Virus record (IMG/VR): IMGVR_UViG_2630968701_000002
Direction: 5' to 3' (one strand)
DNA length: 64,000 bases
Source of the DNA: a virus
Lineage: Duplodnaviria > Heunggongvirae > Uroviricota > Caudoviricetes
Numbering within the stretch: the first letter of the stretch is position 1; each line of letters opens with the position of its first letter. This document shows positions 561 to 62,604 of this stretch, one piece after another. Made by a program: the position numbers and the translations under genes. The notes beneath the pieces were generated by a model that saw only the letters and a list, made by a program, of their open reading frames with translations, had not been told where the DNA came from and made no database searches.

Positions 561-1116
561 TTCTTTTTCTCCTTTCTATCTTTTTCTTTTTGTTTTTCTT
601 CTTTGAATTTTGGTTTTTCTTTTTAGGTCTCTTTTTCGGTTTTTTCTTTTTGTTATGTTCTAGATTATCGTCAGAATTGGGATTATTCTTTCTTTTTTGT
701 AATTCTTCATGATATTCCAAATGGTCTTCATAAGAATCATGAAAAATACTGAAGTGGACAACGGCGATTAAAACAACTACTATTTCCAAATATCCAATGA
801 TTATGATGGAAGCTATCAAATCCATCGGATAAAAGCCTGCTTTCACTACACTTAACTGTAGTCCTATTACTTCACAGAGATAAAAAAAGAATTTAGTTTT
901 GTCCAAGCTTGCTTCCAAAATATAATGATCCTCTTGCAGTCGATTATAAACAGGATGATTCCATTTTTTACTTCCGCTAACACCAATCGAATTAAAGTAA
1001 CGGTCTATCTTTTTATCAGTCATGATATCATCTATTTTAATTATGATTTCACTAACGATAGAAAGAATGAATCCCACAATTCCCATGTACAAAAATATAA
1101 AATCCAAAGTATCCAT
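532..1116 (-). CDS. hypothetical membrane protein with Lys-rich C-terminal tail
   Basis: 194-aa ORF with hydrophobic N-terminal segments. The K-rich tail is encoded by a T-rich tract and could be over-extension. Confidence 0.4.
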   Translation of the reverse strand: MDTLDFIFLYMGIVGFILSIVSEIIIKIDDIMTDKKIDRYFNSIGVSGSKKWNHPVYNRLQEDHYILEASLDKTKFFFYLCEVIGLQLSVVKAGFYPMDLIASIIIIGYLEIVVVLIAVVHFSIFHDSYEDHLEYHEELQKRKNNPNSDDNLEHNKKKKPKKRPKKKNQNSKKKNKKKKIERRKRNELYQPIWH

Positions 1117-1145
1117 AGTTTATTTCCCCTTTCTCTTTCTTTTTT

Positions 1146-1514
1146 TCATTTTAAATATGAGAGTAAATCTTGTATTACATAACGCAGAGAACAGATATAA
1201 AATCCTATCATGAATGAAATTATTATAAATCTGCGATAAAATAAATTTGATTCATTAATATCGTTGATAACAAGCGGAGAGATAAATATAAAAAAACAAA
1301 TGCCGGATGAAATTCCATAAAATGATTTTAAATTCCATAAACAGTTTTTTAGTTTCTTATATCCCTCATTCATGCATTTTCTTACAATAGGATTTTTTGT
1401 TTTGGATAGATTATTTACCAGTATTTGACGTTCTCTATATTCTATAATTTCACATATGATCAAACAAATTGTAAAAGAAATCTGGATGAATTCAAAAATC
1501 AAGTATATTGACAT
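1146..1514 (-). CDS. hypothetical small membrane protein
   Basis: 122-aa ORF with hydrophobic stretches. Ends with TGA. A cassette motif (taaatatgaga) lies at 1151-1165. Confidence 0.45.
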   Translation of the reverse strand: MSIYLIFEFIQISFTICLIICEIIEYRERQILVNNLSKTKNPIVRKCMNEGYKKLKNCLWNLKSFYGISSGICFFIFISPLVINDINESNLFYRRFIIISFMIGFYICSLRYVIQDLLSYLK

Positions 1515-1637
1515 CTTTGTGTATTACTCCTTTTATTTTAAATATGAAAGAAAATCTAGAAAGAAAAAAATCACATATAAAAAAAAGAGGCCAGTTAAGG
1601 CCTCTTTCAAAAAAGTATGATATGTGTTTTGAATTAA

Positions 1638-1853
1638 CTAATATTCAAGATATTCAAGAAGTTCTTCTTCATCTGAAAACTCTTTACCTTCGATGTTAAA
1701 AACATCCCAGGTATTTGCACATCCCTTGCGACAATTACAGGTTAACCCATGATAATCTCCATTTGTTGTGTGTACGCTTACCATTGGGTAATTCCCGTTA
1801 TTGCAACCAGGATTTTCTAATTCTTCAATTATTACTGACTTTACTTTGATCAT
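1638..1853 (-). CDS. hypothetical small Cys-containing protein
   Basis: 71-aa ORF with RBS ggag upstream. Part of a tightly spaced operon from 3736 down to 1638. Confidence 0.4.
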   Translation of the reverse strand: MIKVKSVIIEELENPGCNNGNYPMVSVHTTNGDYHGLTCNCRKGCANTWDVFNIEGKEFSDEEELLEYLEY

Positions 1854-1870
1854 AGTTTTTCTCCTGTTTT

Positions 1871-2095
1871 TTAAATATAAACATCATCTTTTATTGGTGT
1901 TAATGAAATCTCCCATTCTTTTGGAAGGCTTTCAATGATCTCAAGAACGTACCATTCTTTTCCTGCTTCTTCAGCAGCAATCTTAAGATCATCGATCTTT
2001 TCTTGAATCATTTCCATTGTCACGTCATCATTTTTACAAATTAAAACTCCGCAACAATCCATTTCAGGTGTTACATTTAAGAAAAGTAGTCTCAT
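1871..2095 (-). CDS. hypothetical protein
   Basis: 74-aa acidic ORF with AGGAG RBS. Confidence 0.4.
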   Translation of the reverse strand: MRLLFLNVTPEMDCCGVLICKNDDVTMEMIQEKIDDLKIAAEEAGKEWYVLEIIESLPKEWEISLTPIKDDVYI

Positions 2096-5902: not shown

Positions 5903-6234
5903 GTTTTCTCCTTATCTTCTATGAAATCTGTTCCATATTTCAGTTCCAAAGAGACATATATACTATGCTTCTTAGAAAGGCACCAATCTCTCATGTAGTA
6001 CTTGTCTCCAACATACCAAACGTCTTCAAGAAATCTTTCTCCAGAATTGATTTCATCTAGAATTATTTCTCTTGTTGGTAATTCTACATGATCAACACAA
6101 TCAGTGTAATGCCCGCTTAATGCTCGATAGTATTCTGAAATCTTCTTATATCTTTTACGGCATTCCTCAACAAATTCAGAGACATTTTTTTCGCCTTCTT
6201 TTGTCAGTTGATACATATTTTCTCCTTTCATCAT
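5890..6234 (-). CDS. hypothetical protein, same paralog family
   Basis: Internal MYQLTKEGEKNVSEFVEECRKRY. Overlaps the downstream gene by 13 nt. Confidence 0.5.
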   Translation of the reverse strand: MMKGENMYQLTKEGEKNVSEFVEECRKRYKKISEYYRALSGHYTDCVDHVELPTREIILDEINSGERFLEDVWYVGDKYYMRDWCLSKKHSIYVSLELKYGTDFIEDKEKTCIN

Positions 6235-6581: not shown

Positions 6582-6662
6582 ATCGTCATTATTTGTTTAC
6601 GTATTAAGTATGAGAGATGAGAAAAAAGATAAAAAAAAGGAGAGCCAAACGGACTCTCTTAA
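6582..6662 (-). promoter_or_regulatory. conserved intergenic cassette (terminator hairpin + promoter boxes + AATGACGA leader), representative copy
   Basis: Plus-strand text tcgtcatt...taagtatgagagatgagaaaaaagataaaa...ggagagccaaacggactctc. The same module recurs throughout the window. Confidence 0.6.
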
Positions 6663-7513: not shown

Positions 7514-7544
7514 GGTTATATCCTGTGAAGCCTCACACGACTAA

Positions 7545-8981: not shown

Positions 8982-9147
8982 ATCGAACAGCTCCTTTCTT
9001 ATTTTTCCTCTTTCCTTAAATATGAGATTTATGAAAAAAAATATCTTTCATATATAAAAATCTTCTTCTTTGAAAGGAAACGTTACCTAACTCATGACTA
9101 AAGTCACGAGAGTGCGGTGACTGTTCTTCAAACTTATTTTTTTTTCA

Positions 9148-9222
9148 ATTTAAATATGAAGGATTTTAAAGAAACGGTTTTTCACATATAAAAAAAAGAG
9201 AGCCGAAGCTCTCCTTTTTTAT
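9148..9222 (-). promoter_or_regulatory. conserved intergenic cassette copy
   Basis: Plus-strand text ttaaatatgaaggattttaaagaaacggtttttcacatataaaaaaaagagagccgaagctctcc. Confidence 0.55.
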
Positions 9223-10046: not shown

Positions 10047-10143
10047 TTTGTTTTCTCCTTTCGTCAGATCATCTATATTTTAAATATGACTGTTTAGAAA
10101 TAGGATAACTGATGTTTTTGTTTCTAGCAAGTGGTTAGGCATA

Positions 10144-12284: not shown

Positions 12285-12399
12285 GCTGCATATCTCCTTT
12301 TCAAATTTTCTTTTAATATAAATATGAGAGAAATTTTCTTTTTCAAAAATCACATATAAGAAAATTGACAAAATCCTTTCAAAGCGATATTATATCTGT

Positions 12400-13430: not shown

Positions 13431-13516
13431 CGTCATTAAATTATATTTTAAATATGAGATATAAAGCAAAAGATAAATTTCATATATAAAAAAAGAGACC
13501 AAATGGTCTCTCTTTG
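13431..13516 (-). promoter_or_regulatory. conserved intergenic cassette copy
   Basis: Plus-strand text cgtcattaaattatattttaaatatgagatataaagcaaaagataaatttcatatataaaaaaagagaccaaatggtctc. Confidence 0.6.
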
Positions 13517-14499: not shown

Positions 14500-14586
14500 C
14501 GTCATTTTATTACATTGTAAGTATGAGATATAAAGAAAAAGATAAAATCCATATATAAGAAAAAGAGACCAAACGGTCTCCTTTTG
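14500..14586 (-). promoter_or_regulatory. conserved intergenic cassette copy
   Basis: Plus-strand text gtcattttattacattgtaagtatgagatataaagaaaaagataaaatccatatataagaaaaagagaccaaacggtctc. Confidence 0.6.
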
Positions 14587-19620: not shown

Positions 19621-19706
19621 CGTCATTGTATATTACGTTATAAATATGAAAGATGAAGTAAAAAATAAAAATCATATATAAAAAAGAGCTCCCGGAGGAA
19701 CTCTTT
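19621..19706 (-). promoter_or_regulatory. conserved intergenic cassette copy
   Basis: Plus-strand text cgtcattgtatattacgttataaatatgaaagatgaagtaaaaaataaaaatcatatataaaaaagagctcccggaggaactc. Confidence 0.6.
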
Positions 19707-21335: not shown

Positions 21336-21434
21336 TTCCTTTCTCCTTTTCTCTCATCGTCATTTCATTACACCTTAAATATGAAAGATAAAAAAAAACG
21401 ATAAAAAAAGAAGCCGTAATCGGCTTCCTGAAAA

Positions 21435-22106: not shown

Positions 22107-22206
22107 AATTTTTCTTCCTTTCTCTTCATCGTCATTTTTTTATATATTCAAATATGACAGATGAGAAAAAAGATAAAAAAAGAGCCCGAAGGCTCCTTCT
22201 TTTGAA

Positions 22207-23253: not shown

Positions 23254-23371
23254 AATTTTTCTCCTTTTCTTTCTCTAAATCGTCAATTAGTTGTTACATG
23301 ATAAATATGAGAGATGAAAAAAAATATAAAATTCATATATAAAAAAGAGACCCGTAGGTCTCTCTTGAAAA

Positions 23372-23980: not shown

Positions 23981-24084
23981 TTAATTTTTCTCCTTTTCTC
24001 TCAATCGTCATTAAAATGTTTCAGTTTAAATATGAAAGATAGAAAAAAAATAAAAAAAGAGACCCGAAGGTCTCTCAAAAAAAA

Positions 24085-26113: not shown

Positions 26114-26195
26114 AAATTTTCTCCTTTACTTTTCTCTCTTCGTCATTTCTTGTTACGTATTAAATATGATAGATAAGAAAAAAAATAAAATCGAT

Positions 26196-26283
26196 ATATA
26201 AGATTCTTACATTTCAAAGGAAGCTCGCATTCATCCCAGCCAAACTTTCTTTATGGATGGGGTGTTCTGCTTAAGTCAATAAA
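26196..26283 (-). repeat. solo copy of the TnpB-B element left-end hairpin region (PATE-like fragment), nested between two cassettes
   Basis: About 88% identical to 62516-62600 (gattcttacatttcaaaggaagctcgcat.catccc.gcc.aactttc.tt.tgga.ggggt.ttctgctta..tcaataaa). Confidence 0.5.
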
Positions 26284-26362
26284 TATGAGAGATTTTTTTA
26301 ATTTTCGAAAATCATATAAAAAAAAGAGACTGGTTTTAGCCTCTTTTTCTGGAAATTATTTT

Positions 26363-27212: not shown

Positions 27213-27292
27213 TTCTTGTTATATATTAAATATGAGAGATGAGAGAAAAGATAAAATCCATATATAAGAAAAAGAGATCCGTAGATCTCTCC
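27205..27292 (-). promoter_or_regulatory. conserved intergenic cassette copy
   Basis: Plus-strand text ctgttcgtcatttcttgttatatattaaatatgagagatgagagaaaagataaaatccatatataagaaaaagagatccgtagatctc. Confidence 0.6.
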
Positions 27293-27300: not shown

Positions 27301-27582
27301 TCATTCAATGTATGATCCCAATTCGATATTTGCAGCTTGATTTAATTCCAATTCCAAAATTTCAATACTCATCTCTACTTCAATTAATGACGTTTTTGAA
27401 ATTTCTTTCTCATACAGTTGTTTTGCAGCTGATTTTCTAGCAATCTCAGCTTCTTTTTTCGTGCCATAAATTCCAAAAACATTTTCTCGACATCCGTAGC
27501 CCTCAAACCATGTGTCTCCATGTACCAAATATACTTTCATTATTCTTCTCCTTTTCTCTGTTCGTCTTTTGAAATGCTTCAA
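27301..27582 (-). CDS. hypothetical protein
   Basis: 93-aa ORF. Confidence 0.4.
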   Translation of the reverse strand: MKHFKRRTEKRRRIMKVYLVHGDTWFEGYGCRENVFGIYGTKKEAEIARKSAAKQLYEKEISKTSLIEVEMSIEILELELNQAANIELGSYIE

Positions 27583-27615
27583 TTTGAATATGAGAGATAG
27601 AAAATGATATAAAAA

Positions 27616-28764
27616 TCATTCATACATTTCAAATTCTCCACTGATATACATTTTTTCAAGATTGTGTTCTTCTTTTAATTCTCTTTGTGTTGAATTACAA
27701 AATGATGTTAATATCCCTTTACCAGATAAGATAAACAAGCAATCTGGCCTCATGAATTTGTTTGATAACAAATGTGTATTATGAGACGTTAAGATAATCT
27801 GACATTTTGGATATGTTTCTTTCAAGACAAGTAGCATTTTCTCTGTTGTTTCATAATGAAAAAAGGAATCAATTCCATCTAAGTAAAGAAAAGAAACATT
27901 TTCATCATTTGAAAGGATCCTGTAATATAATTCAGTCAGCATTAAGATTCCACTAGATGCGTTCTCAAGAAATGGGATCATCCGGTCATACACAAAATAT
28001 AAATTCCTTTGCCTGCTTAGCATCCTTTTTAATTTTAGTTTACATTCGATTCCCATTACATTTAAGAAATCCTCAAAATGCTGCAAATTGTGATTCTTTT
28101 CTAATAGCTGATAAAAATTTTGTTCTTCCACTGTATTAGACAATAAAGAAAATTCTCTGTAATCTGCAGTTATTCGACTCATTCCATTTACATAATCTGT
28201 CAGCTTTAATAAAACAGAATTCTCATCTAGTGCCATATGATCAAGCGTCCATTTTAAAAATGCAAATCTAGAACCAGGGATATCATCACAGCTTTTCACA
28301 TACTCCAAATAATATTCTGTATTTGCTGTTTCTGCATGAATATCATTCAAATGATCAAAATCATATTTCCCTTTTTCAAAATCACACTCAAAAATACTAA
28401 TTCCGTTGATTTCTAATTTTTCGTAATTTAATCCTCGATATTCTTTCAAATATTCATAGCACAGCTCTGTATCACCAAATTGAAACCGGTATTCAAAGAA
28501 CGCTGTCTTTTCATCCGAATCAGTATTCAAAAGAAATGGATCATATGGACATTCAAATGTCCCACATAATACATCTTTAATATCTAACAATGCTTTTCCA
28601 AGATGTGTTTTACCTGTTGCATTCCGCCCGCAGATCAGCATTTTACGAATGATTCCATCTGAAATGCAATTTGTCTGGAATGAGTAATCTCTGATATTTT
28701 CAAAATCTATGGTGATTTCATCTTTAAAGTTTTTATAATTTCTTAATGTAAATGCTTTTAACAT
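27616..28764 (-). CDS. ABC/AAA_21-type ATPase (SMC-like, OLD/AbiEii-type fold)
   Basis: Walker A ICGRNATGKTHLGKAL. Walker B/D-loop LYLDGIDSFF. ILTSHN near the C-terminus. Start refined to MLKAFTLRNYKNFKD (AAGGAG RBS). Confidence 0.6.
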   Translation of the reverse strand: MLKAFTLRNYKNFKDEITIDFENIRDYSFQTNCISDGIIRKMLICGRNATGKTHLGKALLDIKDVLCGTFECPYDPFLLNTDSDEKTAFFEYRFQFGDTELCYEYLKEYRGLNYEKLEINGISIFECDFEKGKYDFDHLNDIHAETANTEYYLEYVKSCDDIPGSRFAFLKWTLDHMALDENSVLLKLTDYVNGMSRITADYREFSLLSNTVEEQNFYQLLEKNHNLQHFEDFLNVMGIECKLKLKRMLSRQRNLYFVYDRMIPFLENASSGILMLTELYYRILSNDENVSFLYLDGIDSFFHYETTEKMLLVLKETYPKCQIILTSHNTHLLSNKFMRPDCLFILSGKGILTSFCNSTQRELKEEHNLEKMYISGEFEMYE

Positions 28765-29755: not shown

Positions 29756-29870
29756 AAATTTTTCTCCTTTTCTCTGTTCGTCATTTTTATTTACAGCTTA
29801 AATATGAGAGATGAGAAAAAAGATAAAAGAAAAAAGGACTTTACAGCCCTCTTCTCTCCTTTTGTATCAA

Positions 29871-30815: not shown

Positions 30816-30922
30816 ATTGGTTCTCCTTTTCTCTATGTCGTCATTTCTATTTACATATTAGATATGAGAGATGGAAAGAAAAATAAAAAAAAGGAGACCA
30901 TTACGATCCCCTTGAAATTTAA

Positions 30923-32459: not shown

Positions 32460-32601
32460 AATTGTTCTCCTTTCTTTCTCTTTTCGTCATAATCTTTTAC
32501 ATAACAAATATGAGATTTTGGAAGAAAAATAAAAATAGCTAACCATTTTTATTGATGTGTTTGCATGTTGATTTTCAATTATAATATGATATAATGTAAG
32601 T

Positions 32602-33723: not shown

Positions 33724-33821
33724 CCTTTCTCAAATTCGTCATCTAGTTACGGATTAAATATGACAGATGAGAAAAAAGATAAAGATTACATATGAGAAAA
33801 AGAGACCTGCTTGTGCAAGTC

Positions 33822-34505: not shown

Positions 34506-34814
34506 TCAAAAGTACCTCCTCATATCAAATATGAGAGATATTATTTGAAAAATCGTTCTTTCATTTTTGCTTTCCAAAAGATCCACCTCATCTTTATCCG
34601 AAATTTTAAACTCGGCTCCCATTCTGCTTTGATCTCATTTTGTTCGATCTTTTTTATTTCATCTTCTATCCAAAGTTTTGCAGCTTTTTTCATTTCGTCA
34701 TTCATAATTTGTCTCCTTTTTTTTGTATATATTTTCCGTTACATTATACAAAGCATTCAAATTACAAAAAGGGGAAGAAAAAAATAAAATTTTTTCGAAA
34801 ATACGTTCTGATTG

Positions 34815-39420: not shown

Positions 39421-39675
39421 ATCGAACAGCTCCTTTCTTATTTTTCCTCTTTCCTTAAATATGAGATTTATGAAAAAAGATATCTTTCATATATAAAAAT
39501 CTTCTTTAAAAGGAAGCGTTACCTAACTCATGACTAAAGTCACGAGAGTGCGGTAAATGCTCTTCAAAAAAGTATTTCTTGCATTTTCGAAAAATAGTGA
39601 TATACTTAATTCATGGATTAACATCCTGGAAGACATCCTTATTACATAATATACAAGTCTTCCTATATACTCCCC

Positions 39676-40254: not shown

Positions 40255-40381
40255 AATTTTTTCTCCTTTCTATAAAATTCTTCTTTATTATAAATATGAA
40301 AGATTTTCAGATTCTCAAAATTCATATATAAAAAAAGAAGCCTCGCACGGCTCCTTAAAAACTTTAAATTTTGTAATGTAA

Positions 40382-42791: not shown

Positions 42792-42876
42792 TCCTTTTAT
42801 TTTAAATATGAGAGAATTTTAGGATGTTATTTTTCACATATCTCAGTATGTATCCCCTGTTACAAAAATCATTCTC

Positions 42877-44156: not shown

Positions 44157-44591
44157 TTAATCTTCATCAATTTCAATATCATCAACTTTACCATTTCGAT
44201 ACGTAACAATACATTTTACTTTGCTTCCTTTTCCAATAGAATGATATTGTCTTTTTGACACTTCAACATCGTGCAAATCTGTATCATTTTTCCTGGAAAC
44301 TGTAAGGTAGTATTCCGTATCTGCAAATTGGATCAAAACCATTTCTGATGTGTCCAGTTCTGAAAATTTATCCTGAACAGTTACAGTTTCTCTTTTTTCA
44401 GTAATTGTATCTGTATGAGGTTTATCAGCGAAGCATAAACATGCGATTAATGCGATAATTGCAAGAAACATGAAAGCGTCATACATTTTTTCTCCTAATT
44501 CTTCCTTTTCTATTTTCATAATTGGTGTCTCCTTTTGTACTTTATTTTCTTTAATATAAATATGAGAGAAAATTTGTTTTTGGAAAATCAC
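44157..44591 (-). CDS. membrane-anchored hypothetical protein (third paralog)
   Basis: C-terminal motif YHSIGKGSKVKCIVTYRNGKVDDIEI. Confidence 0.45.
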   Translation of the reverse strand: MIFQKQIFSHIYIKENKVQKETPIMKIEKEELGEKMYDAFMFLAIIALIACLCFADKPHTDTITEKRETVTVQDKFSELDTSEMVLIQFADTEYYLTVSRKNDTDLHDVEVSKRQYHSIGKGSKVKCIVTYRNGKVDDIEIDED

Positions 44592-44684
44592 ATATAAAAA
44601 AGCACAAAAAAGAGGCCGATAAGACCTCTTTCATAAAACATTTGAATGTAAAAAAATATTAGGATGTTGGAGGGTGTTTCTCTT

Positions 44685-45566: not shown

Positions 45567-45662
45567 TTGTTTTTCCTTTCTCTATTCGTCATTATTTACA
45601 TGACAAATATGAAAGATAGTAAAAATGATAATATTTACAAAAAAAAGACCCCGAAGGATCTT

Positions 45663-47707: not shown

Positions 47708-48015
47708 TTTTATCAATTCCTTTCTGTTTTTGTTTTTCTACTCAAATGATATCGAAACCCAGGCGAATTAACCACCATATATTAACATTTTTTCAAATTT
47801 ATTTTTAAACTGATTTTTGATGTTACACATAATTATTTTGTGTGTAATACCAATTTTTCTTTTTATTTATACATTCAGTTCAATTCATCCATTATATAAA
47901 GACATAAAAATATTTGGTATTGCCATTATTTTTTTTATGTTTCACTTTAAATATGAGAGATTTGAAAGAAAAAATATCCATACAAAAAAAAGGACCATCT
48001 CTGGTCCCTTAAAAA

Positions 48016-48879: not shown

Positions 48880-48983
48880 TCATTTTCTCCTTTCTTCATT
48901 TATTACAAATATGAGAGAAAATTTAAAAATAATTTTTCACATATAAAAAAGAGACCATTTCTGGTCCCTTAAAAATATTTTAT

Positions 48984-49500: not shown

Positions 49501-49521
49501 CAACGAAAGAAGGTGATTACA

Positions 49522-52930: not shown

Positions 52931-53053
52931 GACTATATCACACCTTTCTTAGTAATATCTTCTTACTACAAATATGAAAGAAATCCAAGAAACAAAAAAT
53001 CACATATAAAAAAAGAAGCTCATTCATGAGCTCCCAATATATTATTCCATTCT

Positions 53054-56969: not shown

Positions 56970-57144
56970 TTCTCCATTCTCCTTCTATCCCAAGATGAAA
57001 CATTTACATTTTCTTCTTTATTTAAATATGCGAGATTTTTCAAAAGATATTTTTCATATATAAGATTTTAAATGATAGAACTGGCTGATATTAACAAAAA
57101 AAAACAGACTAGCGATTGAACAACTAATCTGTTTTTGGTATTTT

Positions 57145-57822
57145 TCAATCATTGTCTTTTAAGATTGCCAAGAGATCAACAAAAAGATTGATCAGATCCA
57201 AATAGATATCTGCACCAAAAATAATCGCATTTGCTACCGTATGAGATACACGCTGCGCAGCTACAAAATCATGTCCGATATATAAAGAAAATACGATCGC
57301 TGAAATCCATGTTACAATTCCAGAATTTAAGTCTGCAAAAAAGCATACAATATACGCAATGATAATGCCTAACAATGCAACAAAAAGCATTCTTCCAATT
57401 CCCAGAAAAAATTTAGGAAAAATAGAGCTAAGAACGACCATGCAAACAGTAATAATCGTTGTAATGATCAATGTTTCTAATACAATATCAGATTTTCCAA
57501 CATAATCATTTAAGGTTGTAGATAATGTTGCACCACACGGAATTATCAACATATTGTAGCCTATGAATTTCAAAATTATCGACTTACAAAATGTCAATAC
57601 AGCAATCCCTATAATTGCGATAATCAGATATCCAATTAACAATACTTTTACTGGAGTCTTTGCTACATAATCTCCGAAAAACGCACATGTAATAAGATTT
57701 ATCAACAAGCCATATAGTACAATGGCTCCGATCAGCAAATTATATGTTCCCTCATTTAGATATATATTTTCTAATTTTGAACTAAATTTTATATCCATTT
57801 TTCTACCGCTTTTTATTTTCAT
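57145..57822 (-). CDS. multi-pass membrane protein
   Basis: 225 aa with about 5-6 hydrophobic helices. Confidence 0.45.
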   Translation of the reverse strand: MKIKSGRKMDIKFSSKLENIYLNEGTYNLLIGAIVLYGLLINLITCAFFGDYVAKTPVKVLLIGYLIIAIIGIAVLTFCKSIILKFIGYNMLIIPCGATLSTTLNDYVGKSDIVLETLIITTIITVCMVVLSSIFPKFFLGIGRMLFVALLGIIIAYIVCFFADLNSGIVTWISAIVFSLYIGHDFVAAQRVSHTVANAIIFGADIYLDLINLFVDLLAILKDND

Positions 57823-58273
57823 TCCTGATATCTCCTATATTATCTTTCTCACGTTCTCCTGCAATTTTCATGGCCAATGCATTTTGCAGCACTTTTGAAC
57901 AGCTAATTCCATATTTTTTAACCTCATCGTCCATCCAAGCAGGAATTGTACAGTCTTTTCTAACAGACTTATTTTTCAACCGGATTAGATAAGATTCCGT
58001 ATTAATATCAACATAGATCATGATTCCCTTTAAATCACCATCACCATATTCTTTAAAAACCTCGATGAACCCTTCTTCATAAGTCATTGGAATAGGAATT
58101 TCTTTTTTATCCAATTCCAGATCTGCCACTTTTAAAGAAATTGCATCTCTTGCCATTTGAATCGCATCATATAGATCAGTTCCTTCTGTATGGATTTCAA
58201 GTCCTGGGACATACACCAAGAATCCATTTCCTTTTGTATCTTCTGTTAGAAAAACAGGGTATGCTTCTTTCAT
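57803..58273 (-). CDS. hicB: HicB-like antitoxin-fold protein
   Basis: MKEAYPVFLTEDTKGNGFLVYVPGLEIHTEGTDLYDAIQMARDAISLKV is a UPF0150/HicB-like N-terminus. RHH-like C-terminus (SKVLQNALAMKI). Confidence 0.45.
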   Translation of the reverse strand: MKEAYPVFLTEDTKGNGFLVYVPGLEIHTEGTDLYDAIQMARDAISLKVADLELDKKEIPIPMTYEEGFIEVFKEYGDGDLKGIMIYVDINTESYLIRLKNKSVRKDCTIPAWMDDEVKKYGISCSKVLQNALAMKIAGEREKDNIGDIRNENKKR

Positions 58274-58326
58274 TTTTTCTTTCCTTTCGCGTTCGTTTAA
58301 TATAAATATGATGGATTTTACAATTT

Positions 58327-58749
58327 TTATTTCTCACATATAAAATTCTTCTTCTGCTCATCTGACAATACTTCATTCACAAACATGAAATCACTCAAAA
58401 AATCCCGAATTTTTATTTTTACTTTCATGGACGTATTCGAATCTTTTTCTTTGTCGAATACTCTATCAAGAAAATCATTATGTATGTTTGGATGTGCAAA
58501 GTATTGCTCATCGCAATGAAGAAGATTACAAATTAATGCCATATCAAATTTATCAATCTTCTCATATGGGATTTTATTATTGATGATATTTCTGATCAGG
58601 CATTCATCCATAAAAGTCATCTCTGCCAAAGTAGCAGCATTGATTTCTAACATATCCATTCTTCTCTTCAATGTATTTCCAATATATCTCATATGAATAA
58701 CCTCCTTGTTGTTACAAATATGATAGATTTTATGAGAAAGAAAAATCAC
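58327..58749 (-). CDS. hypothetical protein
   Basis: 140-aa ORF. Confidence 0.4.
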   Translation of the reverse strand: MIFLSHKIYHICNNKEVIHMRYIGNTLKRRMDMLEINAATLAEMTFMDECLIRNIINNKIPYEKIDKFDMALICNLLHCDEQYFAHPNIHNDFLDRVFDKEKDSNTSMKVKIKIRDFLSDFMFVNEVLSDEQKKNFICEK

Positions 58750-58898
58750 ATATAAAAAAGAGAGAAGGTATTACTCTCCTCTCAGTTCCTGTTCCTTTTT
58801 TCTTCTGAAATTACGTATTTTTCGTACAAATGTTTATTTGCATAAAACAAATCTAACATTTGATAAATCTGTTCTAAGGATGTTATTTTCTGAGGCAT

Positions 58899-59795
58899 TT
58901 AGATCACTTCCTTGCTTACCTTTTGAATCAACTTTTCCACAAGAAAATCCATTGTCTCAGATTGTGTATGATTACCCTTTGTATATTCGATTAGCTCCTG
59001 ATCCATTTCCATAAGATCAATGCTTTCTACAAATTTTTCAATCATTTTAAGCTCTTCATTCTCATTGAATTTTGTAAATTCCACTTTGTTACGAAATCTT
59101 CGTTTTAATGCTTTATCAAGAATGTCTTCTCTGTTTGTTGCAGCAATTACAATCTGTCCATGTACAAGATTATCCAGACATTGCATCAGAGATATGACAA
59201 TTCGTCCCATTTCTGCATCTGGGCCGGAATTATGTTGCCTAGCTTGTCCTATACAATCAATCTCATCCAACATCAATACACATTTCATTCCTTTGCAATA
59301 ATCGAAAATTCTTGATAAATTTTGTGCCGTTTTTCCCATATATGAATCAATCAGATTAGAAAAGTTCAAATATGCATATGGAAGCCCCAATTTATATGCA
59401 ACATATCTTGCAAATTCAGTTTTTCCTGTTCCAGGAACCCCATATAGAAGCGTACTATTATGATAGGAAATGCCATATTCCATTAGTCTATCTGATACTT
59501 TTGTTCCTACAAGAATCTGATCATACAGTTTCTGTTGTTTTTCTCCAACATAATATCGATCTTCACGAAATCCGGAAACATCTTCTAATGACATATAGGC
59601 TTGAAGATTTGGAGGAAGTTCCATAAATGTTGAGTTTCCATTTTCTAAAAGTTTTTGATAGTAATTAAGATTCGCTGCGTTCTTTTTTGTTGTATCATTT
59701 TTGCAGCATACGATCGCTGCATTTTTCGCATCCTGTATTTTATTTTTCGCCAAACATTCAATAACTGAAAGCATGTTATTATCTAATCCTGCCAT
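58899..59795 (-). CDS. AAA+ ATPase
   Basis: Walker A LLYGVPGTGKTEFA. Walker B VLMLDEIDCIG. Sensor IAATNRED. Confidence 0.7.
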   Translation of the reverse strand: MAGLDNNMLSVIECLAKNKIQDAKNAAIVCCKNDTTKKNAANLNYYQKLLENGNSTFMELPPNLQAYMSLEDVSGFREDRYYVGEKQQKLYDQILVGTKVSDRLMEYGISYHNSTLLYGVPGTGKTEFARYVAYKLGLPYAYLNFSNLIDSYMGKTAQNLSRIFDYCKGMKCVLMLDEIDCIGQARQHNSGPDAEMGRIVISLMQCLDNLVHGQIVIAATNREDILDKALKRRFRNKVEFTKFNENEELKMIEKFVESIDLMEMDQELIEYTKGNHTQSETMDFLVEKLIQKVSKEVI

Positions 59796-59879
59796 ATATT
59801 TTCCTTTCTTCGAATATAGTTTTCATCTTCAATATAAATATGAAAGAATTCAAACAAAATTATTTTCACATATAAGATT

Positions 59880-60353
59880 TCATGGCAGATAGCAGAATGA
59901 TTGTGGGGCTCTTTTAATCCCAAAATCGCTTAATTCTTTTGGAATATCGAATTTGATCACATTTTTCAATTGGTAAGCAACTGCAGTATCTCGCTTTCGA
60001 AAATACTGATCATAAAACTTTTTGTTTATTCCAGGATATTCTTTGGTCTTTTCCCAGATCACTTCTGGTGTATCCACAAGAACTTTTTCAACTTCTGCTT
60101 CTCCCACAATTTTCATGATTGGAGCTGTCTCATATATCAGTATTTTGCTAATTGGAATTCTGTTTGGCTGTTTTCGATATTCGAACTTTTTGGTTCCATT
60201 GAAAATCTTTTCTACATATTCCGGACGAATTGAAAACAATGCTGTTTTTGCATTGACTGATTCTCTTGCTGGTTCAACAATTGATTTGACTTCTTCGTTG
60301 GATAATTCTTTATTCAGCAAACTGGTATTTTTAATTTTTTCTTGCAAAATCAT
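59880..60353 (-). CDS. ASCH (PUA-like) domain protein
   Basis: FSIRPEYVEKIFNGTKKFEYRK...ILIYETAP pattern, typical of the ASCH beta-barrel. Confidence 0.4.
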   Translation of the reverse strand: MILQEKIKNTSLLNKELSNEEVKSIVEPARESVNAKTALFSIRPEYVEKIFNGTKKFEYRKQPNRIPISKILIYETAPIMKIVGEAEVEKVLVDTPEVIWEKTKEYPGINKKFYDQYFRKRDTAVAYQLKNVIKFDIPKELSDFGIKRAPQSFCYLP

Positions 60354-60658
60354 TTTATACTCTTCCCTTTCATTAGATTTTGTAATTCTTCTTTAGAACA
60401 TATATTATGAATATGATCACACTCAATTTTAATGATATTACCATCAGAATCTATTATTGAAAAAGAATTTTCTTCTTCGTTGATCTCAATTATGATACCA
60501 GATATCCAATGAGTTGGCTCCTCTCTATCTAATACAACTTTACAGTAATCTCCGATACGAAGATTGTATTCAAAATCAGAATCTGAATAATAGTCAATCA
60601 CTTTTTCAGGATTAAGGTCACCTGGGTTTGTCAGATATACATTAACTTCGCCAATCAT
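60350..60658 (-). CDS. hypothetical protein co-transcribed with the ASCH protein
   Basis: 102 aa. 4-nt overlap with the downstream start. Confidence 0.4.
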   Translation of the reverse strand: MIGEVNVYLTNPGDLNPEKVIDYYSDSDFEYNLRIGDYCKVVLDREEPTHWISGIIIEINEEENSFSIIDSDGNIIKIECDHIHNICSKEELQNLMKGKSIK

Positions 60659-60974
60659 CGCTTTCTCTTCCTTCCTTTCTCTTCCTTCAAATCTTTTATA
60701 TTTACATTTTTTAGATTTATTAAGGCATTGATCAATGATGCATTAACAATCTGGCATCCTTCTCTTTTCCGCTAACATGCATTTCGATAGTCTTTATCAC
60801 GTTATATGCAACATACAGAAAAAATATTATTCCGCAGATTGCACAAAATGTTGAGATTATGGGATGATACTGTATGACCTGCAGAAAACTTGCTTGGGGT
60901 GGTATTGGATGGAAAGGATGTGTTTCTTCATATCCTATTGGTTCATGAACTACCACTCCCATGCGGTACATAAT

Positions 60975-61100
60975 CCCTATGGAAGGGGTTTCCAGTAGTC
61001 GTGACAGTTACCCATCTCTGACGAAATATTTCGAAAAAAAAACACCTCGCTGTCCGTACCAACTGAGGCTGGCTCACGCAACCCCTATCTCTTTTACGAG
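60975..61100 (-). ncRNA. candidate TnpB-B omega/right-end RNA
   Basis: GC-rich structured segment directly downstream of the tnpB stop. Confidence 0.35.
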
Positions 61101-62443
61101 AATACTTGTATAACTTTGATATTCTGCAAGAAAGAAAAGTCCGTGATCTTTGAGAAAGTCTCTGGAAATTTCTTTCTTAAGATATTTCCTGCGCCGATCA
61201 GATCTGCATTGAATAGGTTCCCTTCCTTATTCTGATAGAGTCCACGTTTGACTCTTGTTCCGGAAAACTTTGCCTTTTCATCATCCACTCCATACGTTGG
61301 AATATGATCTCCTGCAGTCAGATCCGCTTTTGACGTATAGCTTTCTTCCTGACTGATCACTTCGATCCCGACACGCTCTGCCTTGTACTCGATCATCTTT
61401 CGCAGCTGATAGAATGGCATCTGGACAAAGGACTGTGTATTTTTTCCAAGCTCAATACTCTGTTTCCATTGCTCATTGACTCCGATCACGATCGTAGTGA
61501 TCCCGTGAGACATACATTCCTGAACGATCCTGGAACTGATCTTGTGCATCGCATCGTGGAAGAACAGATCTCTCTTCTGATGCAATCTTCGCATCTGTTT
61601 TGTGTTCAACAATCCCATTTTTGCTGCTTCTTTCGGGTCATGTCCTTTCATTGCGATCGACCGAAGCCTTGCAAGCTGTTTGTTGTACCACTGGTTCTTT
61701 TCTTTGAGCACACCGCCTTTGTACAGCCAGCAATCTCCCTTGCTGCTCACGATGGCTGCGATGTTCTCAACACCAAGATCAATGGCACAGACCCCGGATC
61801 CCTTCACTTTTTCTTCCGGATCTGGGCATTCAAACGTGCAGGCCAATAACAGATCTCCGTAATATGGTTTTACTTTGACTTCCTTTAATCGTCCTTCCGG
61901 TCGATACGGCAGATGGATCGTTTCGTTTGTAAGAGCGAACCGCAGGATATCTCCTTCTTTGATCTTGCAGCCCTGATTGGAAAAAGTGATCGTGGAGATC
62001 GAACGCTTCTTCTTATAGTGTGGCATTTTCGGTTTTCCCAGATACTTTTCCGGATGCTTCTTATATTTTCTCAAAGAAGCTAACCAGCTGCGAAAATCAT
62101 GGACCGCTGCTTTCTGACATTCTTCTGCCGTCTGGGATGGAAGCCCTGCAAAGAAATCAGGATTATCCATCACACGCATCATCCGTTCCAGAAACTTATA
62201 ACTCAGAACAGATTTCGGACGTTTCAGGTGTGGACACAGTTCTAATGTTTCTTCGATCTCACGCTGTACTTCCAGCTCATTCTCTGTCGGATGCTCTTTC
62301 TTCCGAGAAGTAAAGTTCTGTCGGATCCGGAACAATGTCGCATTATAGAGATTGTTTGATAAGTGCATATGATGATCCAGATATTCATATAATCCGGGAT
62401 CTTTCTTCTGTTTTAATACAGTTCTTAACACTCGATATATCAT
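61094..62443 (-). CDS. tnpB: TnpB-like RNA-guided nuclease lacking the zinc-finger cysteines
   Basis: RuvC-I CAIDLGVENIA. RuvC-III NADLIGAGNI. The position normally CxxC...CxxC reads SYTSKADLTAGDHIPTYG. 449 aa. Confidence 0.7.
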   Translation of the reverse strand: MIYRVLRTVLKQKKDPGLYEYLDHHMHLSNNLYNATLFRIRQNFTSRKKEHPTENELEVQREIEETLELCPHLKRPKSVLSYKFLERMMRVMDNPDFFAGLPSQTAEECQKAAVHDFRSWLASLRKYKKHPEKYLGKPKMPHYKKKRSISTITFSNQGCKIKEGDILRFALTNETIHLPYRPEGRLKEVKVKPYYGDLLLACTFECPDPEEKVKGSGVCAIDLGVENIAAIVSSKGDCWLYKGGVLKEKNQWYNKQLARLRSIAMKGHDPKEAAKMGLLNTKQMRRLHQKRDLFFHDAMHKISSRIVQECMSHGITTIVIGVNEQWKQSIELGKNTQSFVQMPFYQLRKMIEYKAERVGIEVISQEESYTSKADLTAGDHIPTYGVDDEKAKFSGTRVKRGLYQNKEGNLFNADLIGAGNILRKKFPETFSKITDFSFLQNIKVIQVFS

Positions 62444-62604
62444 TCCCCGTCATTCCTCCTTTCTTAAGTCTTACATCTTAAATATGATAGATTTTCTGAA
62501 AGATATTTTTCATATATAAGATTCTTACATTTCAAAGGAAGCTCGCATCCATCCCCGCCCAACTTTCATTGTGGACGGGGTATTCTGCTTAGATCAATAA
62601 AAAC

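What the first reader, a model, noticed from the sequence alone, without database searches (positions are those of the whole stretch)
1100..62600. A single ~90-bp terminator-promoter-leader cassette is reused in front of at least 40 genes
Almost every intergenic gap carries the same module. On the coding (minus) strand it reads: a variable GC hairpin (e.g. gagacc-N4-ggtctc, with compensatory changes between copies), then a T-tract merging into TTTTTATATATGA, about 21 variable nucleotides, TCTCATATTTAA, 12-17 variable nucleotides often containing TGTAAATA- or TATAAT-like hexamers, then AATGACGA, N4-8, GAGAAAAGGAGAAAA, and ATG. This degree of uniformity across dozens of unrelated ORFan genes is not normal for a bacterial chromosome. 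It implies a dedicated transcription regime, such as a phage- or element-encoded sigma factor or RNA polymerase, or a very recently amplified modular gene-cassette system. The repeated module could also promote cassette shuffling by homologous recombination. The TnpB-A and TnpB-B insertion sequences carry the same module as their internal promoter, so the module is active in whatever genome hosts this region.
Basis: seen in the sequence. Interest (0 to 1): 0.85.

Follow-up and report, generated by a model that had tools for sequence, protein, structure and literature searches.

The report
Element-specific promoter cassette, likely own sigma
A low-GC mobile island in the gut bacterium Anaerostipes hadrus puts the same non-standard promoter, usually right after a terminator, in front of dozens of unrelated genes; the host chromosome lacks this promoter, and related DNA encodes a private sigma factor that probably reads it.

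Summary
The repeat is real. There are 36 credible copies in the window, all on the minus strand, not 40 or more. 33 sit 23-66 nt upstream of a start codon.

Refined anatomy: intrinsic terminator (about 60% of copies), then box 1 TTATAT[A/G]TGA (about half), then a rigid 20-nt T-rich gap, then the core ATCTCTCATATTTA, then a conserved T-purine 4 nt further on. Reading T-purine as -1/+1 puts CATATT at -12..-7, which is sigma-70-family geometry without a canonical -35. Half the copies add a GACGA leader and an optimised ribosome-binding site.

The module is not the host's general promoter. 149 kb of A. hadrus chromosome gave 1 hit, against 37 in the 64-kb window. Canonical sigma-A/LexA promoters occur elsewhere in the window.

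The same module occurs about 600 times in related gut-metagenome loci (about 30-39% GC, most 32-35%). A subset of 310 copies sits before more than 100 unrelated protein families.

A conserved core locus (secretion ATPase, PBP, DnaE, SSB, RecJ) carries a divergent FliA-like sigma gene behind its own module.

Best reading: an element-specific promoter class, probably read by the element's own sigma. This is not proven. No transcript ends were mapped, and sigma and window were not shown to lie on one contig. Recent amplification is not supported.

The parts
62471..62522 (-). Module, class A, with box 1. Sits between the IS left end (62520-62603) and tnpB-B (61094-62443).
   Evidence: Core 20.3 bits; box 1 has 0 mismatches; ATG 44 nt downstream.
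59827..59878 (-). Module, class B, with box 1. Precedes the AAA ATPase gene 58899-59795.
   Evidence: 18.7 bits; box 1 has 0 mismatches; Pfam AAA.
58707..58758 (-). Module, class B, with box 1 and a terminator. Precedes the Xre-like HTH gene 58327-58692.
   Evidence: 19.6 bits; hairpin GAGAGGAGAG..CTTCTCTC.
58295..58346 (-). Module, class B, with box 1. Precedes gene 57803-58273.
   Evidence: 16.6 bits.
57015..57066 (-). Module, class B, with box 1. Precedes gene 56544-56969.
   Evidence: 19.7 bits.
52961..53012 (-). Module, class B, with box 1 and a terminator. Precedes gene 52676-52930.
   Evidence: 18.7 bits.
48898..48949 (-). Module, class B, with box 1 and a terminator. Precedes the SPFH/Band-7 gene 48016-48879.
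   Evidence: 21.4 bits; Pfam.
47940..47991 (-). Orphan module with a terminator and a degenerate box 1. The next gene (46775-47707) starts about 250 nt downstream.
   Evidence: 23.8 bits; no SD/ATG within 130 nt.
45596..45647 (-). Module, class A, with a terminator. Precedes the hydrolase gene 44685-45566.
   Evidence: 18.9 bits.
44549..44600 (-). Module, class B, with box 1 and a terminator. Precedes gene 44157-44519.
   Evidence: 21.2 bits.
42795..42846 (-). Module, class B, box 1 with 2 mismatches. Precedes the M78-peptidase-like gene 42237-42782. The SD starts about 15 nt after the T of TCATATTT.
   Evidence: 22.7 bits.
40283..40334 (-). Module, class B, with box 1 and a terminator. Precedes the HNH gene 39676-40254.
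   Evidence: 21.7 bits.
39448..39499 (-). Module, class B, with box 1. Lies inside the TnpB-A insertion sequence, between its left-end hairpin and tnpB (38080-39420).
   Evidence: 17.2 bits; its sequence matches the second IS copy at 9025 apart from a single spacer base.
34518..34569 (-). Module, class B, no box 1. Precedes the sortase gene 33822-34505. The SD starts at +13.
   Evidence: 22.5 bits.
33747..33798 (-). Module, class A, with a terminator. Precedes gene 33214-33711.
   Evidence: 19.4 bits.
32497..32548 (-). Module, class A, no box 1. Precedes gene 32190-32459.
   Evidence: 15.4 bits.
30851..30902 (-). Module, class A, no box 1; the terminator abuts the T-rich spacer. Precedes gene 29871-30815.
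   Evidence: 19.9 bits; terminator.
29791..29842 (-). Module, class A, no box 1, with a terminator. Precedes gene 28784-29755.
   Evidence: 22.3 bits.
27577..27628 (-). Module, class A. Precedes gene 27301-27540.
   Evidence: 20.1 bits.
27219..27270 (-). Module, class A, with box 1 and a terminator. Precedes gene 26859-27185.
   Evidence: 23.5 bits.
26272..26323 (-). Orphan module with a terminator. It is followed by a roughly 90-nt IS left-end remnant (26196-26283) and then the next module.
   Evidence: 21.8 bits; the remnant matches 62520-62603.
26153..26204 (-). Module, class A. Precedes gene 25598-26113.
   Evidence: 20.4 bits.
24019..24070 (-). Module, class A, no box 1, with a terminator. 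Precedes gene 23372-23980.
   Evidence: 21.3 bits.
23294..23345 (-). Module, class A, with box 1 and a terminator. Precedes gene 22207-23253.
   Evidence: 22.0 bits.
22141..22192 (-). Module, class A, no box 1, with a terminator. Precedes gene 21435-22106.
   Evidence: 20.1 bits.
21368..21419 (-). Module, class A, no box 1, with a terminator. Precedes gene 21135-21335.
   Evidence: 21.2 bits.
19633..19684 (-). Module, class A, with box 1 and a terminator. Precedes gene 19392-19583.
   Evidence: 22.1 bits.
14510..14561 (-). Module, class A, with box 1 and a terminator. Precedes the radical-SAM-like gene 13540-14475.
   Evidence: 15.6 bits.
13441..13492 (-). Module, class A, with box 1 and a terminator. 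Precedes gene 12544-13401.
   Evidence: 21.4 bits.
12311..12362 (-). Module, class B, with box 1. Precedes the YpsA-like gene 11685-12284.
   Evidence: 21.2 bits.
10073..10124 (-). Module, class A, weak, no box 1. Precedes gene 9780-10046.
   Evidence: 14.9 bits.
9143..9194 (-). Orphan module with box 1 and a terminator. The second TnpB-A IS copy is inserted just downstream.
   Evidence: 18.4 bits; the IS left-end hairpin follows.
9009..9060 (-). Module inside the second TnpB-A IS copy. It precedes the split tnpB (8706-8981 plus 7640-8818).
   Evidence: 17.2 bits.
6597..6648 (-). Module, class A, no box 1, with a terminator. Precedes gene 6231-6560.
   Evidence: 20.7 bits.
1531..1583 (-). Module, class B, box 1 at N21, with a terminator. 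Precedes gene 1146-1514. The SD starts at about +15.
   Evidence: 21.0 bits.
1144..1195 (-). Module core, class B, no box 1. It overlaps the 3' end of gene 1146-1514 and precedes gene 532-1116.
   Evidence: 20.6 bits.

Best explanation
The repeated cassette is a transcription-unit boundary specific to one family of low-GC mobile DNA in Anaerostipes hadrus. That DNA is a large island, integrated in the chromosome in several assemblies.

Each cassette ends the upstream unit with an intrinsic terminator and restarts transcription from a non-canonical promoter. The parts of the promoter are:
- the determinant ATCTCTCATATTTA, in which CATATT acts as the -10 hexamer;
- a predicted start at the conserved T-purine 6 nt downstream of CATATT;
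- no -35 TTGACA;
- in half the copies, an upstream box TTATAT[A/G]TGA at a rigid distance, with a 17-bp gap between the two conserved blocks.

The transcript has a short purine-rich leader. This is either almost nothing or the ..GACGA.. leader, followed by a near-perfect SD.

The holoenzyme that reads the module is most likely host core RNA polymerase carrying an element-encoded, divergent FliA-like sigma factor (280 aa). That gene sits behind its own module in the element's conserved core, which would give positive feedback and expression orthogonal to host sigma-A.

Shown: the motif, its geometry, its positions relative to genes, its restriction to the element, and the existence and context of the sigma gene.

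Inferred: that the module is a promoter, where transcription starts, and that this sigma reads it.
For: 1. Position and orientation. 33 of 36 window copies lie 23-66 nt upstream of an SD plus ATG on the coding strand. In the metagenome loci, 203 of 310 copies have such an ORF, falling into 109 unrelated protein clusters.
2. Divergent gene pairs use back-to-back modules, for example L203 3600-3700. This requires a promoter on each side.
3. Geometry, from 266 non-redundant copies:
   - C, A, T, A, T, T are 95-100% conserved.
   - T-purine at +12/+13 occurs in 85% of copies.
   - SD-like sequences almost never begin before +13 (4 of 198, probably spurious).
   - Box 1 sits at one fixed offset in 125 of 135 exact matches.
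4. Not sigma-A. The consensus scan does not pick up the modules, and sigma-70-like sites are at or below the shuffle level: 86 against 89.6 and 41 against 57.4. Canonical TTGCAA-17-TATAAT and TTTACA-18-TAAAAT promoters with LexA boxes occur at 36.8 and 33.2 kb.
5. Element-specific. 149 kb of host chromosome (rpoC, tuf, fusA, rplKAJL and other contexts) has 1 core hit at 14 bits or more and none at 18 or more, against 37 in the window. A conventional relaxase/T4SS element in the same host (L199) has none with the full-module matrix at 12 bits or more; the core matrix was not run on it. The scan of species-representative genomes gave only single, chance-level hits.
6. Sigma. It has Sigma70 regions 2, 3 and 4 and is closest to FliA. 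There is no close homologue in PLSDB or in phages. A class-A module lies directly upstream of the small ORF plus sigma pair.
7. Conserved core. The locus T2SSE | trigger-like | PBP1A | sigma | DnaE | SSB | RecJ keeps the module in nearly every intergenic gap even at 65% and 48% sigma identity.
8. Hint of co-variation. A 38%-identical sigma in a different element is accompanied by CATACT-type motifs 37-55 nt upstream of 8 of 15 genes.
9. Same species and assembly. Window proteins and sigma-locus proteins are both named A. hadrus and share one accession block, MCG4627339-58 and MCG4627383.
Against: - No transcript 5' or 3' ends were available, so the promoter function and the start site are inferred from conservation only.
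- The sigma gene was never seen on the same contig as the window region, and overlap-chaining of the held loci found no path between them.
- No sigma variant or sigma-locus protein variant that was read lay on a contig longer than about 600 kb (422 kb for sigma itself), while window genes lie on contigs of 1-3 Mb. Only 40 of 430 cluster members were read.
- The core motif hardly changes between sigma variants that are 48-100% identical, so co-variation is thin.
- Thirteen window copies lack box 1, so the role of box 1 is unclear.
- With CATATT as the -10, the TGA of box 1 lies about 4 bp further upstream than a sigma-70 -35 element would.
- Several element-encoded HTH proteins could instead be the specific factor.
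Confidence: 0.58

Rival explanations
1. The module is read by host sigma-A, using CATATT as a -10 element with no -35. It depends on an element-encoded DNA-binding protein that recognises box 1 and box 2, which are inverted copies of each other. That protein would be either a class-II-type activator centred near -40.5, or a repressor giving transient 'zygotic' expression after transfer. The repressor case resembles Reg576 acting on the EGeRS2 promoters of plasmid p576.
For: - CATATT keeps the A at -11 and the T at -7 that sigma-A needs.
- Box 1 (TTATATATGA) and the reverse complement of box 2 (TTAAATATGA) match at 8-9 of 10 positions at a rigid spacing.
- The element encodes several HTH proteins behind modules: 58327-58692, 45663-46760, and an HTH_19 protein in L209.
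- Gene content resembles establishment or anti-defence regions: SSB, orphan methylases, LPD domains, RadC, DUF4314.
- Repeated regulatory sequences upstream of establishment operons are documented in the literature (PMC6294495, PMC8708921).
Against: - 13 of 36 window copies, and about half of all copies, lack box 1 yet sit behind terminators and in front of genes. An activator bound at box 1 therefore cannot be universal.
- A sigma-A promoter with neither a -35 nor a TGn extension would be very weak.
- Conservation covers 14 contiguous bases plus the start site, not a dyad. No internal palindrome exists in the core.
- DnaE, SSB, RecJ and the sigma gene itself carry the module. This looks like a whole-element programme rather than a leading-region regulon.
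Confidence: 0.25
2. The similarity reflects recent amplification of a mobile or recombinogenic repeat, such as a MITE-like element or an attC-like cassette site, rather than selection on a regulatory signal.
For: - A few sub-families of near-identical copies exist: 22157/6613/33763/29807, 27235/26169, and the IS copies 39464/9025.
- An IS left-end remnant is fused to a module at 26.2 kb.
- Synteny breakpoints are mildly enriched near modules: 8 of 53 against 3.7 expected.
Against: - Outside the conserved blocks, pairwise identity equals the compositional expectation: 0.465 against 0.479, 0.360 against 0.378, and 0.273 against 0.294.
- The motif is conserved in elements whose genes share no nucleotide similarity with the window and across sigma loci only 48% identical.
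- There are no terminal inverted repeats or target duplications, and no integron-type R'/R'' sites.
- The position is locked to start codons, not to gene 3' ends.
Confidence: 0.05
3. The module acts as a folded single strand. It would be either a single-stranded-DNA promoter of the Frpo type used on the incoming strand during conjugation, or an RNA element such as a processing or antitermination site.
For: - All genes are co-oriented, as in plasmid leading regions.
- Box 1 and box 2 are complementary.
- Single-stranded promoters are known in leading regions (PMC11541004).
Against: - Box 1/box 2 pairing is weak as single-stranded DNA: -0.9 to -5.1 kcal/mol, z-scores from -1.6 to +0.8.
- Half the copies lack box 1.
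- Variation between the boxes is not compensatory.
- The element lies downstream of each terminator, so it cannot act on that terminator.
- There are no Rfam hits.
Confidence: 0.03
4. The module is simply the ordinary promoter type of the host taxon.
For: Single good copies occur in an Anaerostipes amylophilus contig (L030) and in a 209-kb IMG/VR contig (L059).
Against: - 149 kb of host chromosome with ribosomal, EF-Tu and rpoC contexts gave 1 hit.
- 185,579 species-representative genomes gave only isolated single matches spread over unrelated phyla.
- Canonical sigma-A promoters are present in the same window.
Confidence: 0.02

Closest known systems
Phage- and plasmid-encoded sigma factors with private promoter sets (B. 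subtilis phage SPO1 gp28 and gp33/34; T4 gp55 late promoters TATAAATA with no -35; plasmid pBS32 SigN; clostridial TcdR/UviA). Recalled from general knowledge, not tested here.
   Same: A mobile element carries a sigma-70-family gene, and its genes share a uniform promoter that does not resemble sigma-A promoters. As with T4 late promoters, the dominant determinant is an extended AT-rich -10 block without a canonical -35.
   Different: - The sigma is a divergent FliA-like protein of about 280 aa, about 25% identical to known FliA.
- The promoter sequence is different.
- The host element is an integrated island that carries DnaE, a secretion ATPase and adhesin genes.
- Nothing has been tested experimentally.
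Establishment-gene regulatory sequences EGeRS1/EGeRS2 of the pLS20/p576 plasmid family (PMC8708921, PMC6294495), and the CUP-repeat regulon of IncN plasmid pKM101 (the latter from memory).
   Same: A conserved sequence repeated upstream of many otherwise unrelated, co-oriented operons of a transmissible element. The repeat itself defines the regulon. Gene content is rich in SSB, anti-restriction-like genes and ORFans.
   Different: - EGeRS2 is a strong sigma-A promoter with dual TTATCCC operators for the repressor Reg576.
- EGeRS1 is a GC-rich structured region of 420-750 bp with no promoter.
- Those systems have 4-6 copies, not dozens.
- Here the module lacks sigma-A hexamers and also precedes replication genes and the sigma gene.
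FliA/sigma-28 (group 3 sigma factors).
   Same: Best sequence matches are to FliA: PDB 1rp3 at E 1.4e-10, and TIGR02479 at 66 bits. The protein has regions 2, 3 and 4. Its recognition would involve a long -10-region determinant.
   Different: - The score is far below the family cut-off (66 bits against 189.6).
- The promoter does not resemble TAAA-N15-GCCGATAA.
- There is no flagellar context.
'Hodor' conjugative megaplasmids of human-gut Bacillota (PMC12934698).
   Same: Very large gut Bacillota elements that are overlooked or mis-filed as viral. They carry sortases, a trigger-factor-like gene, giant surface proteins and TnpB insertion sequences.
   Different: - Hodors have 44.6-47.1% GC and carry Rep_3, ParABM and a T4SS.
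- That paper makes no mention of a sigma factor or of shared promoters.
- The element here has about 33% GC and is integrated in 1-3 Mb contigs.
- Membership was not tested.

Membership tests
Sigma-70-family (two-block) bacterial promoter | A -10 element with A at -11 and T at -7, located 5-8 nt upstream of a purine start site. | tested here: met
   CATATT is 95-100% conserved. T-purine lies 6 nt downstream in 85% of 266 non-redundant copies, and the SD almost never begins before that point (4 of 198 exceptions, probably spurious). The start site itself is inferred, not mapped.
Sigma-70-family (two-block) bacterial promoter | A second upstream block at a fixed distance. | tested here: inconclusive
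   Box 1 sits at one offset in 125 of 135 exact matches. However, it is absent from about half the copies, and its TGA lies about 4 bp upstream of the sigma-70 -35 register.
Housekeeping sigma-A promoter (TTGACA-17-TATAAT) | At least 9 of 12 matches to the two hexamers with a 16-18 nt spacer. | tested here: not met
   The modules are not among the sites found by the consensus scan. Total sites equal the shuffle expectation.
Intrinsic (Rho-independent) terminator | A GC-rich stem-loop followed by a T-run at the 3' end of the upstream gene. | tested here: met
   25 sites against 5.7 expected in 19-37 kb. 22 of 36 modules have one immediately upstream.
Element-encoded sigma regulon | A sigma-70-family gene on the same element as the promoters. 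| tested here: inconclusive
   The sigma gene lies in module-rich loci of the same species and in the same assembly accession block. No contig joins it to the window.
Element-encoded sigma regulon | The sigma is necessary and sufficient for transcription from the motif. | not testable with these tools
   This needs in vitro transcription or genetics.
FliA/WhiG sigma subfamily | A score above the TIGR02479 cut-off, and a TAAA-N15-GCCGATAA promoter. | tested here: not met
   66.1 bits against a cut-off of 189.6. The motif differs.
EGeRS2 / Reg576-type establishment promoters | A sigma-A promoter plus dual heptamer operators for an RHH repressor. | tested here: not met
   There are no sigma-A hexamers and no TTATCCC repeats. 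No Reg576-like gene was identified, although a homology search for one was not done.
Integron attC cassette array | Imperfect inverted repeats R''/L''...L'/R' at the 3' end of promoterless cassettes, together with an integrase. | tested here: not met
   The repeat is locked to the 5' SD/ATG. It forms no stable single-strand fold. No intI-type integrase was found in the window.
Frpo-type single-stranded-DNA promoter | A long, stable intrastrand hairpin that rebuilds the -35 and -10 elements. | tested here: not met
   Folding energy is -0.9 to -5.1 kcal/mol, with z-scores from -1.6 to +0.8.
Known RNA families (Rfam) | A covariance-model hit at the gathering score. | tested here: not met
   0 hits in the window.

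The most novel reading that the evidence does not exclude
The module and the FliA-like sigma together form a self-contained transcription system, orthogonal to the host's, for a previously undescribed family of very large integrative elements. These elements are widespread in Anaerostipes hadrus, a prevalent butyrate producer of the human gut, and have diverged relatives elsewhere. They bring their own DnaE-type polymerase, SSB, RecJ, secretion ATPase, cell-wall synthase and adhesins.

Every accessory gene would be packaged as an insulated terminator-promoter-leader unit. Cargo could then be swapped freely, while the whole element is switched on or off through one sigma factor.
Probability: 0.4. 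Interest if true: 0.75.

Novelty: new variant of a known kind. Interest (0 to 1): 0.6.

Why it matters
If the module is read by the element's own sigma factor, one regulator would control hundreds of kilobases of mobile DNA in one of the commonest human gut Firmicutes. That DNA includes defence and anti-defence genes, adhesins, TnpB/IscB elements and replication genes.

Practical consequences:
- The core motif with its conserved start context (about 22 nt, ATCTCTCATATTTA-N3-TRNAA) is a ready sequence tag. It can be used to find and delimit this element family in metagenomes, where the DNA is currently split between 'viral' bins and chromosomal contigs.
- The sigma/promoter pair would be a compact orthogonal expression system for Lachnospiraceae, which have few genetic tools.
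- The architecture of one insulated unit per gene is an unusually clean natural example of modular expression design.

If the module is instead a sigma-A promoter with a repressor, it would be by far the largest 'establishment regulon' described.

Tried and rejected
- Known phage or plasmid: megablast of 20 kb of the window found no phage and only a TnpB hit at 70% identity on a Ruminococcus albus plasmid.
- tRNA and Rfam scans found nothing.
- General host promoter: rejected using IS110-anchored chromosomal loci and the species-representative genome scan.
- Sporulation-type sigmas (E, K, G; -10 elements starting CATA), ECF sigmas (AAC...CGT) and sigma-54: compared with consensus sequences recalled from memory. 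Spacing and flanks do not fit. No tool test was run.
- LexA regulation of the modules: Cheo boxes are not enriched (10 against 10.6 expected). They occur only at two or three canonical promoters.
- Single-strand hairpin: rejected.
- Recent amplification: rejected.
- Phage-type RNA polymerase: a DFDGD motif search over all held element loci hit only one unrelated viral contig.
- Sigma in IMG/VR, PLSDB or phage genomes: none close.
- Physical linkage of sigma and window: overlap chaining failed once IS-only links were excluded. Walking 20 kb either side of sigma on a 422-kb contig found DnaE, SSB and RecJ but no window genes.
- Literature: no paper in the library contains the motif strings in a relevant context, and nothing was found on A. 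hadrus elements.

Full report
**1. What the window is**

The window has 31-37% GC, with a steadily negative GC skew. About 98 genes were called, and all but one lie on the minus strand. Nearly all have a strong AAGGAG-type ribosome-binding site. Pfam found the following:
- SSB and a LexA-like repressor
- a sortase
- a truncated VirD4-like protein
- an SPFH protein and AAA ATPases
- an AbiEii-like ATPase
- HNH and NS endonucleases
- two IscB-like RRXRR+HNH genes
- three tnpB genes and one IS110 transposase

Most genes have no family assignment. No phage or plasmid in the reference collections resembles the window.

Exact-sequence look-ups show that the window's proteins are annotated as Anaerostipes hadrus in NCBI. 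They occur on thousands of gut-metagenome contigs, including contigs of 1.0-3.0 Mb. In those assemblies the region is therefore an island integrated in the chromosome.

**2. The observation**

A position matrix built from the copies separates them cleanly from background. The 18-nt core alone gives 37 minus-strand hits at 14 bits or more, against 2 on the plus strand.

After curation, 36 modules remain:
- 33 have an SD plus ATG 23-66 nt downstream.
- 3 are orphans, where an IS or an IS remnant separates module and gene.
- 22 have a GC hairpin plus T-tract just upstream.
- About 23 have box 1.
- 18 have the GACGA leader (class A). The other 18 run from the core almost straight into the SD (class B).

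Terminator-like sites are four-fold over-represented.

**3. Refined anatomy**

I pooled every copy from the window and from related loci: 601 copies, 392 unique, 266 non-redundant. This gives the following picture. Positions are relative to the T of TCATATTT.
- Box 1, TTTTATAT[A/G]TGA, spans -35 to -23. Exact TAT[A/G]TGA occurs in 135 of the 266 copies, and 125 of those sit at one single offset.
- A T-rich 17-bp gap follows.
- The core A-T-C-T-c-T-C-A-T-A-T-T-T-A spans -5 to +8. The six bases CATATT are 95-100% conserved.
- Outside the region used for selecting copies, T is conserved at +12 (85%), a purine at +13 (96%), and A-A at +15/+16.
- SD-like sequences start at +13 or later, with a sharp lower edge (only 4 of 198 start earlier, probably spurious matches).

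Reading T12/R13 as the pyrimidine(-1)/purine(+1) start-site pair places CATATT exactly at -12..-7. It then has A at -11 and T at -7, which is the geometry of a sigma-70-family -10 element. Box 1 is centred near -40.5.

The start site is an inference. A register 3 nt upstream (TCTCAT as the -10, start near +10) cannot be excluded.

Box 1 and the reverse complement of box 2 are similar (8-9 of 10 positions). The pairing is weak as single-stranded DNA, however, and half the copies lack box 1.

**4. It behaves like a promoter, not like a sigma-A promoter**

- Copies are locked in orientation and distance to start codons in front of unrelated genes: 109 protein clusters in the metagenome loci.
- Divergent gene pairs have back-to-back modules.
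- The consensus sigma-70 scan does not find the modules. Overall it returns no more sites than shuffled sequence.
- Good canonical promoters exist in the 32.7-37 kb sub-island, two of them with LexA boxes.

**5. It is element-specific**

The IS110 copy in the window also occurs at many chromosomal sites. This gave 149 kb of host DNA (37-38% GC) around rpoC, tuf/fusA/rpsLG, rplKAJL-nusG-secE and metabolic genes. That DNA has one core hit at 14 bits or more and none at 18 or more. A conventional relaxase/T4SS element of the same host has none with the full-module matrix. By contrast, an island stretch from the same kind of contig has nine modules in 21 kb (L200).

An exact-pattern scan of 185,579 species-representative genomes gave 41 isolated single matches across unrelated phyla. 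The IMG/VR and metagenome scans returned many multi-copy loci from human gut samples. Most of these share no gene-level nucleotide similarity with the window.

**6. Not a recent amplification**

Outside the conserved blocks, pairwise identity between window copies equals what column composition predicts. Only a few small sub-families of near-identical copies exist.

Synteny breakpoints between the window and its variants are only mildly enriched near modules: 8 of 53 against 3.7 +/- 1.9 expected. The roughly 90-nt IS left end precedes a module both at tnpB-B and at an ordinary gene (26.2 kb). This is consistent with an exchange through the module. Module-mediated shuffling is therefore possible but weakly supported.

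**7. A candidate dedicated sigma factor**

This found one 280-aa ORF in three loci.

- It has Sigma70 regions 2, 3 and 4.
- Its best matches are FliA/WhiG and SigB/F/G models, far below their cut-offs, and FliA structures.
- PLSDB holds nothing closer than 25% identity, and the phage collection nothing at all.
- None of its homologues carries a name in any database.

The gene lies in a conserved, module-rich core in this order: T2SSE-type ATPase (divergent), trigger-factor-C-like protein, class A PBP, two paralogous proteins of 557 and 338 aa, a 66-77-aa ORF, sigma, a protein of about 270 aa, adhesins with SpaA/TQ/Big_6 domains, an AAA ATPase, a DnaE-type Pol III alpha of 1363 aa, SSB, RecJ, and an S24/S26 peptidase.

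A class-A module lies immediately upstream of the small ORF plus sigma pair. Relatives whose sigma is only 65% and 48% identical keep both the gene order and the module in nearly every intergenic gap, including upstream of DnaE, SSB and RecJ. A 38%-identical sigma lies in a different element, with the same small-ORF/sigma/280-aa arrangement. It is accompanied by CATACT-type motifs 37-55 nt upstream of 8 of 15 genes, where about 1.7 would be expected. This is a hint of co-variation.

**8. Link between sigma and the window**

Evidence for a link:
- Both are A. hadrus. One NCBI assembly holds window proteins MCG4627339, -40, -55, -56 and -58, and the sigma-neighbour protein MCG4627383.
- The same TnpB-A IS family sits in both regions.
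- In three samples, contigs of the two kinds have near-equal coverage (contig names).

Evidence missing:
- No held contig joins them.
- The sigma variants that were read lie on contigs of at most 422 kb.

The link is therefore plausible but unproven.

**9. Mechanism proposed**

Each cassette insulates one short operon. The terminator stops the upstream unit. The module restarts transcription about 13 nt after the T of TCATATTT. The transcript begins with a purine-rich, unstructured leader and a near-consensus SD.

Reading by host core polymerase with the element's FliA-like sigma would explain four things: the uniformity of the modules, the lack of sigma-A features, the absence from the host chromosome, and the module in front of the sigma gene itself (positive feedback).

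The main rival is sigma-A plus an element-encoded activator or repressor acting at box 1 and box 2, as in the p576 establishment regulon (PMC6294495). It remains viable at roughly one chance in four. What counts against it is the many copies without box 1 and the absence of any dyad in the core.

**10. Comparison and novelty**

In kind, this matches two things that are already known: phage or plasmid sigma regulons, and repeated 'establishment' regulatory sequences (PMC8708921). What I found no description of in the held literature is the following combination:
- the motif itself
- the sigma lineage
- the scale: dozens of copies per 64 kb, about 600 copies in the loci sampled, and (among 310 of them) more than 100 gene families served
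- the host element

The recently described 'Hodor' gut megaplasmids share some themes, but they differ in GC content and in their described gene sets. That paper mentions no sigma factor or promoters.

I rate this a new variant of a known kind, with interest of about 0.6.

Noticed in passing
window 32700-37000: A sub-island that does not use the module. Canonical sigma-A promoters lie at 36786-36757 (TTGCAA-17-TATAAT) and 33169-33140 (TTTACA-18-TAAAAT). LexA/Cheo boxes lie at 36737-36750 and 33149-33162. They flank an element-encoded LexA-like repressor (35332-35970), so part of the island appears to be wired to the SOS response.
   Followed up: partly
window 37950-39560 and 7510-9120; locus L217: There are two copies of a TnpB insertion sequence (Pfam Aq_aa04, 446 aa). 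In the second copy, tnpB is split (8706-8981 plus 7640-8818). A metagenome variant (L217) has lost the roughly 30 kb between the two copies. The exact TnpB protein was found only in island contexts (15 contigs). The same IS family also interrupts the sigma locus (L225, L233).
   Followed up: partly
window 26196-26283 and 62520-62603: A hairpin-containing IS left end of 75-90 nt (AAGCAGAAyACCCC...GAATC) abuts box 1 at two places: in front of tnpB-B, and in front of an ordinary gene (25598-26113). This looks like a past exchange through the shared module.
   Followed up: partly
window 14873-16483 and 54769-56325: Two IscB-like genes (RRXRR plus HNH). Long structured-looking upstream regions (gaps of 283 and 251 nt) are likely omega-RNA regions. 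Neither gene carries the module.
   Followed up: no
loci L203, L204, L209, L211, L212, L213 and L224-L233: A conserved core of the element family, in this order: divergent T2SSE-type ATPase, trigger-factor-C-like protein, class A penicillin-binding protein, paralogues of 557 and 338 aa, small ORF, sigma, adhesins (SpaA/TQ/Big_6), AAA ATPase, DnaE-type Pol III alpha, SSB, RecJ, S24/S26 peptidase. An integrated element with its own replicative polymerase and sigma factor is unusual.
   Followed up: partly
class-A leaders in the window (e.g. 29770-29795, 27195-27215); also L212, L234, L235: The short GACGA box 0-8 nt upstream of the SD (for example AATGACGAACAGAGAAAAGGAG or AAGACGAAAGGAG) is conserved even in the element whose sigma is only 38% identical. 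Its function is unknown. It may be a translation-enhancing or protein-binding leader.
   Followed up: no
window 46775-47707: A 310-aa protein matches only the central part (positions 66-284 of 468) of the VirD4/TraG coupling-protein model. This exact short form is conserved on about 790 contigs, so it is a stable truncated derivative, not an assembly artefact.
   Followed up: no
window 49151-50901 (plus strand): This IS110-family element is the only plus-strand gene. The same exact transposase is listed in 7,532 blocks of the collection and at several chromosomal sites in single A. hadrus genomes. It is 99.5% identical in an IMG/VR 'viral' contig.
   Followed up: yes
IMGVR_UViG_3300039324_000189 (L045-L048); L042: Module-bearing A. 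hadrus island fragments are filed as viral genomes in IMG/VR. They carry TerD, RtcB, orphan EcoRI-type and Dam methylases, LPD1, DUF3849 and tyrosine recombinases, but no phage structural genes in the parts examined.
   Followed up: partly
window 28829-28846: A weaker core match (13.5 bits) lies inside the 3' end of gene 28784-29755, 76 nt upstream of the AbiEii-like ATPase gene 27616-28764. It may be an internal promoter.
   Followed up: no
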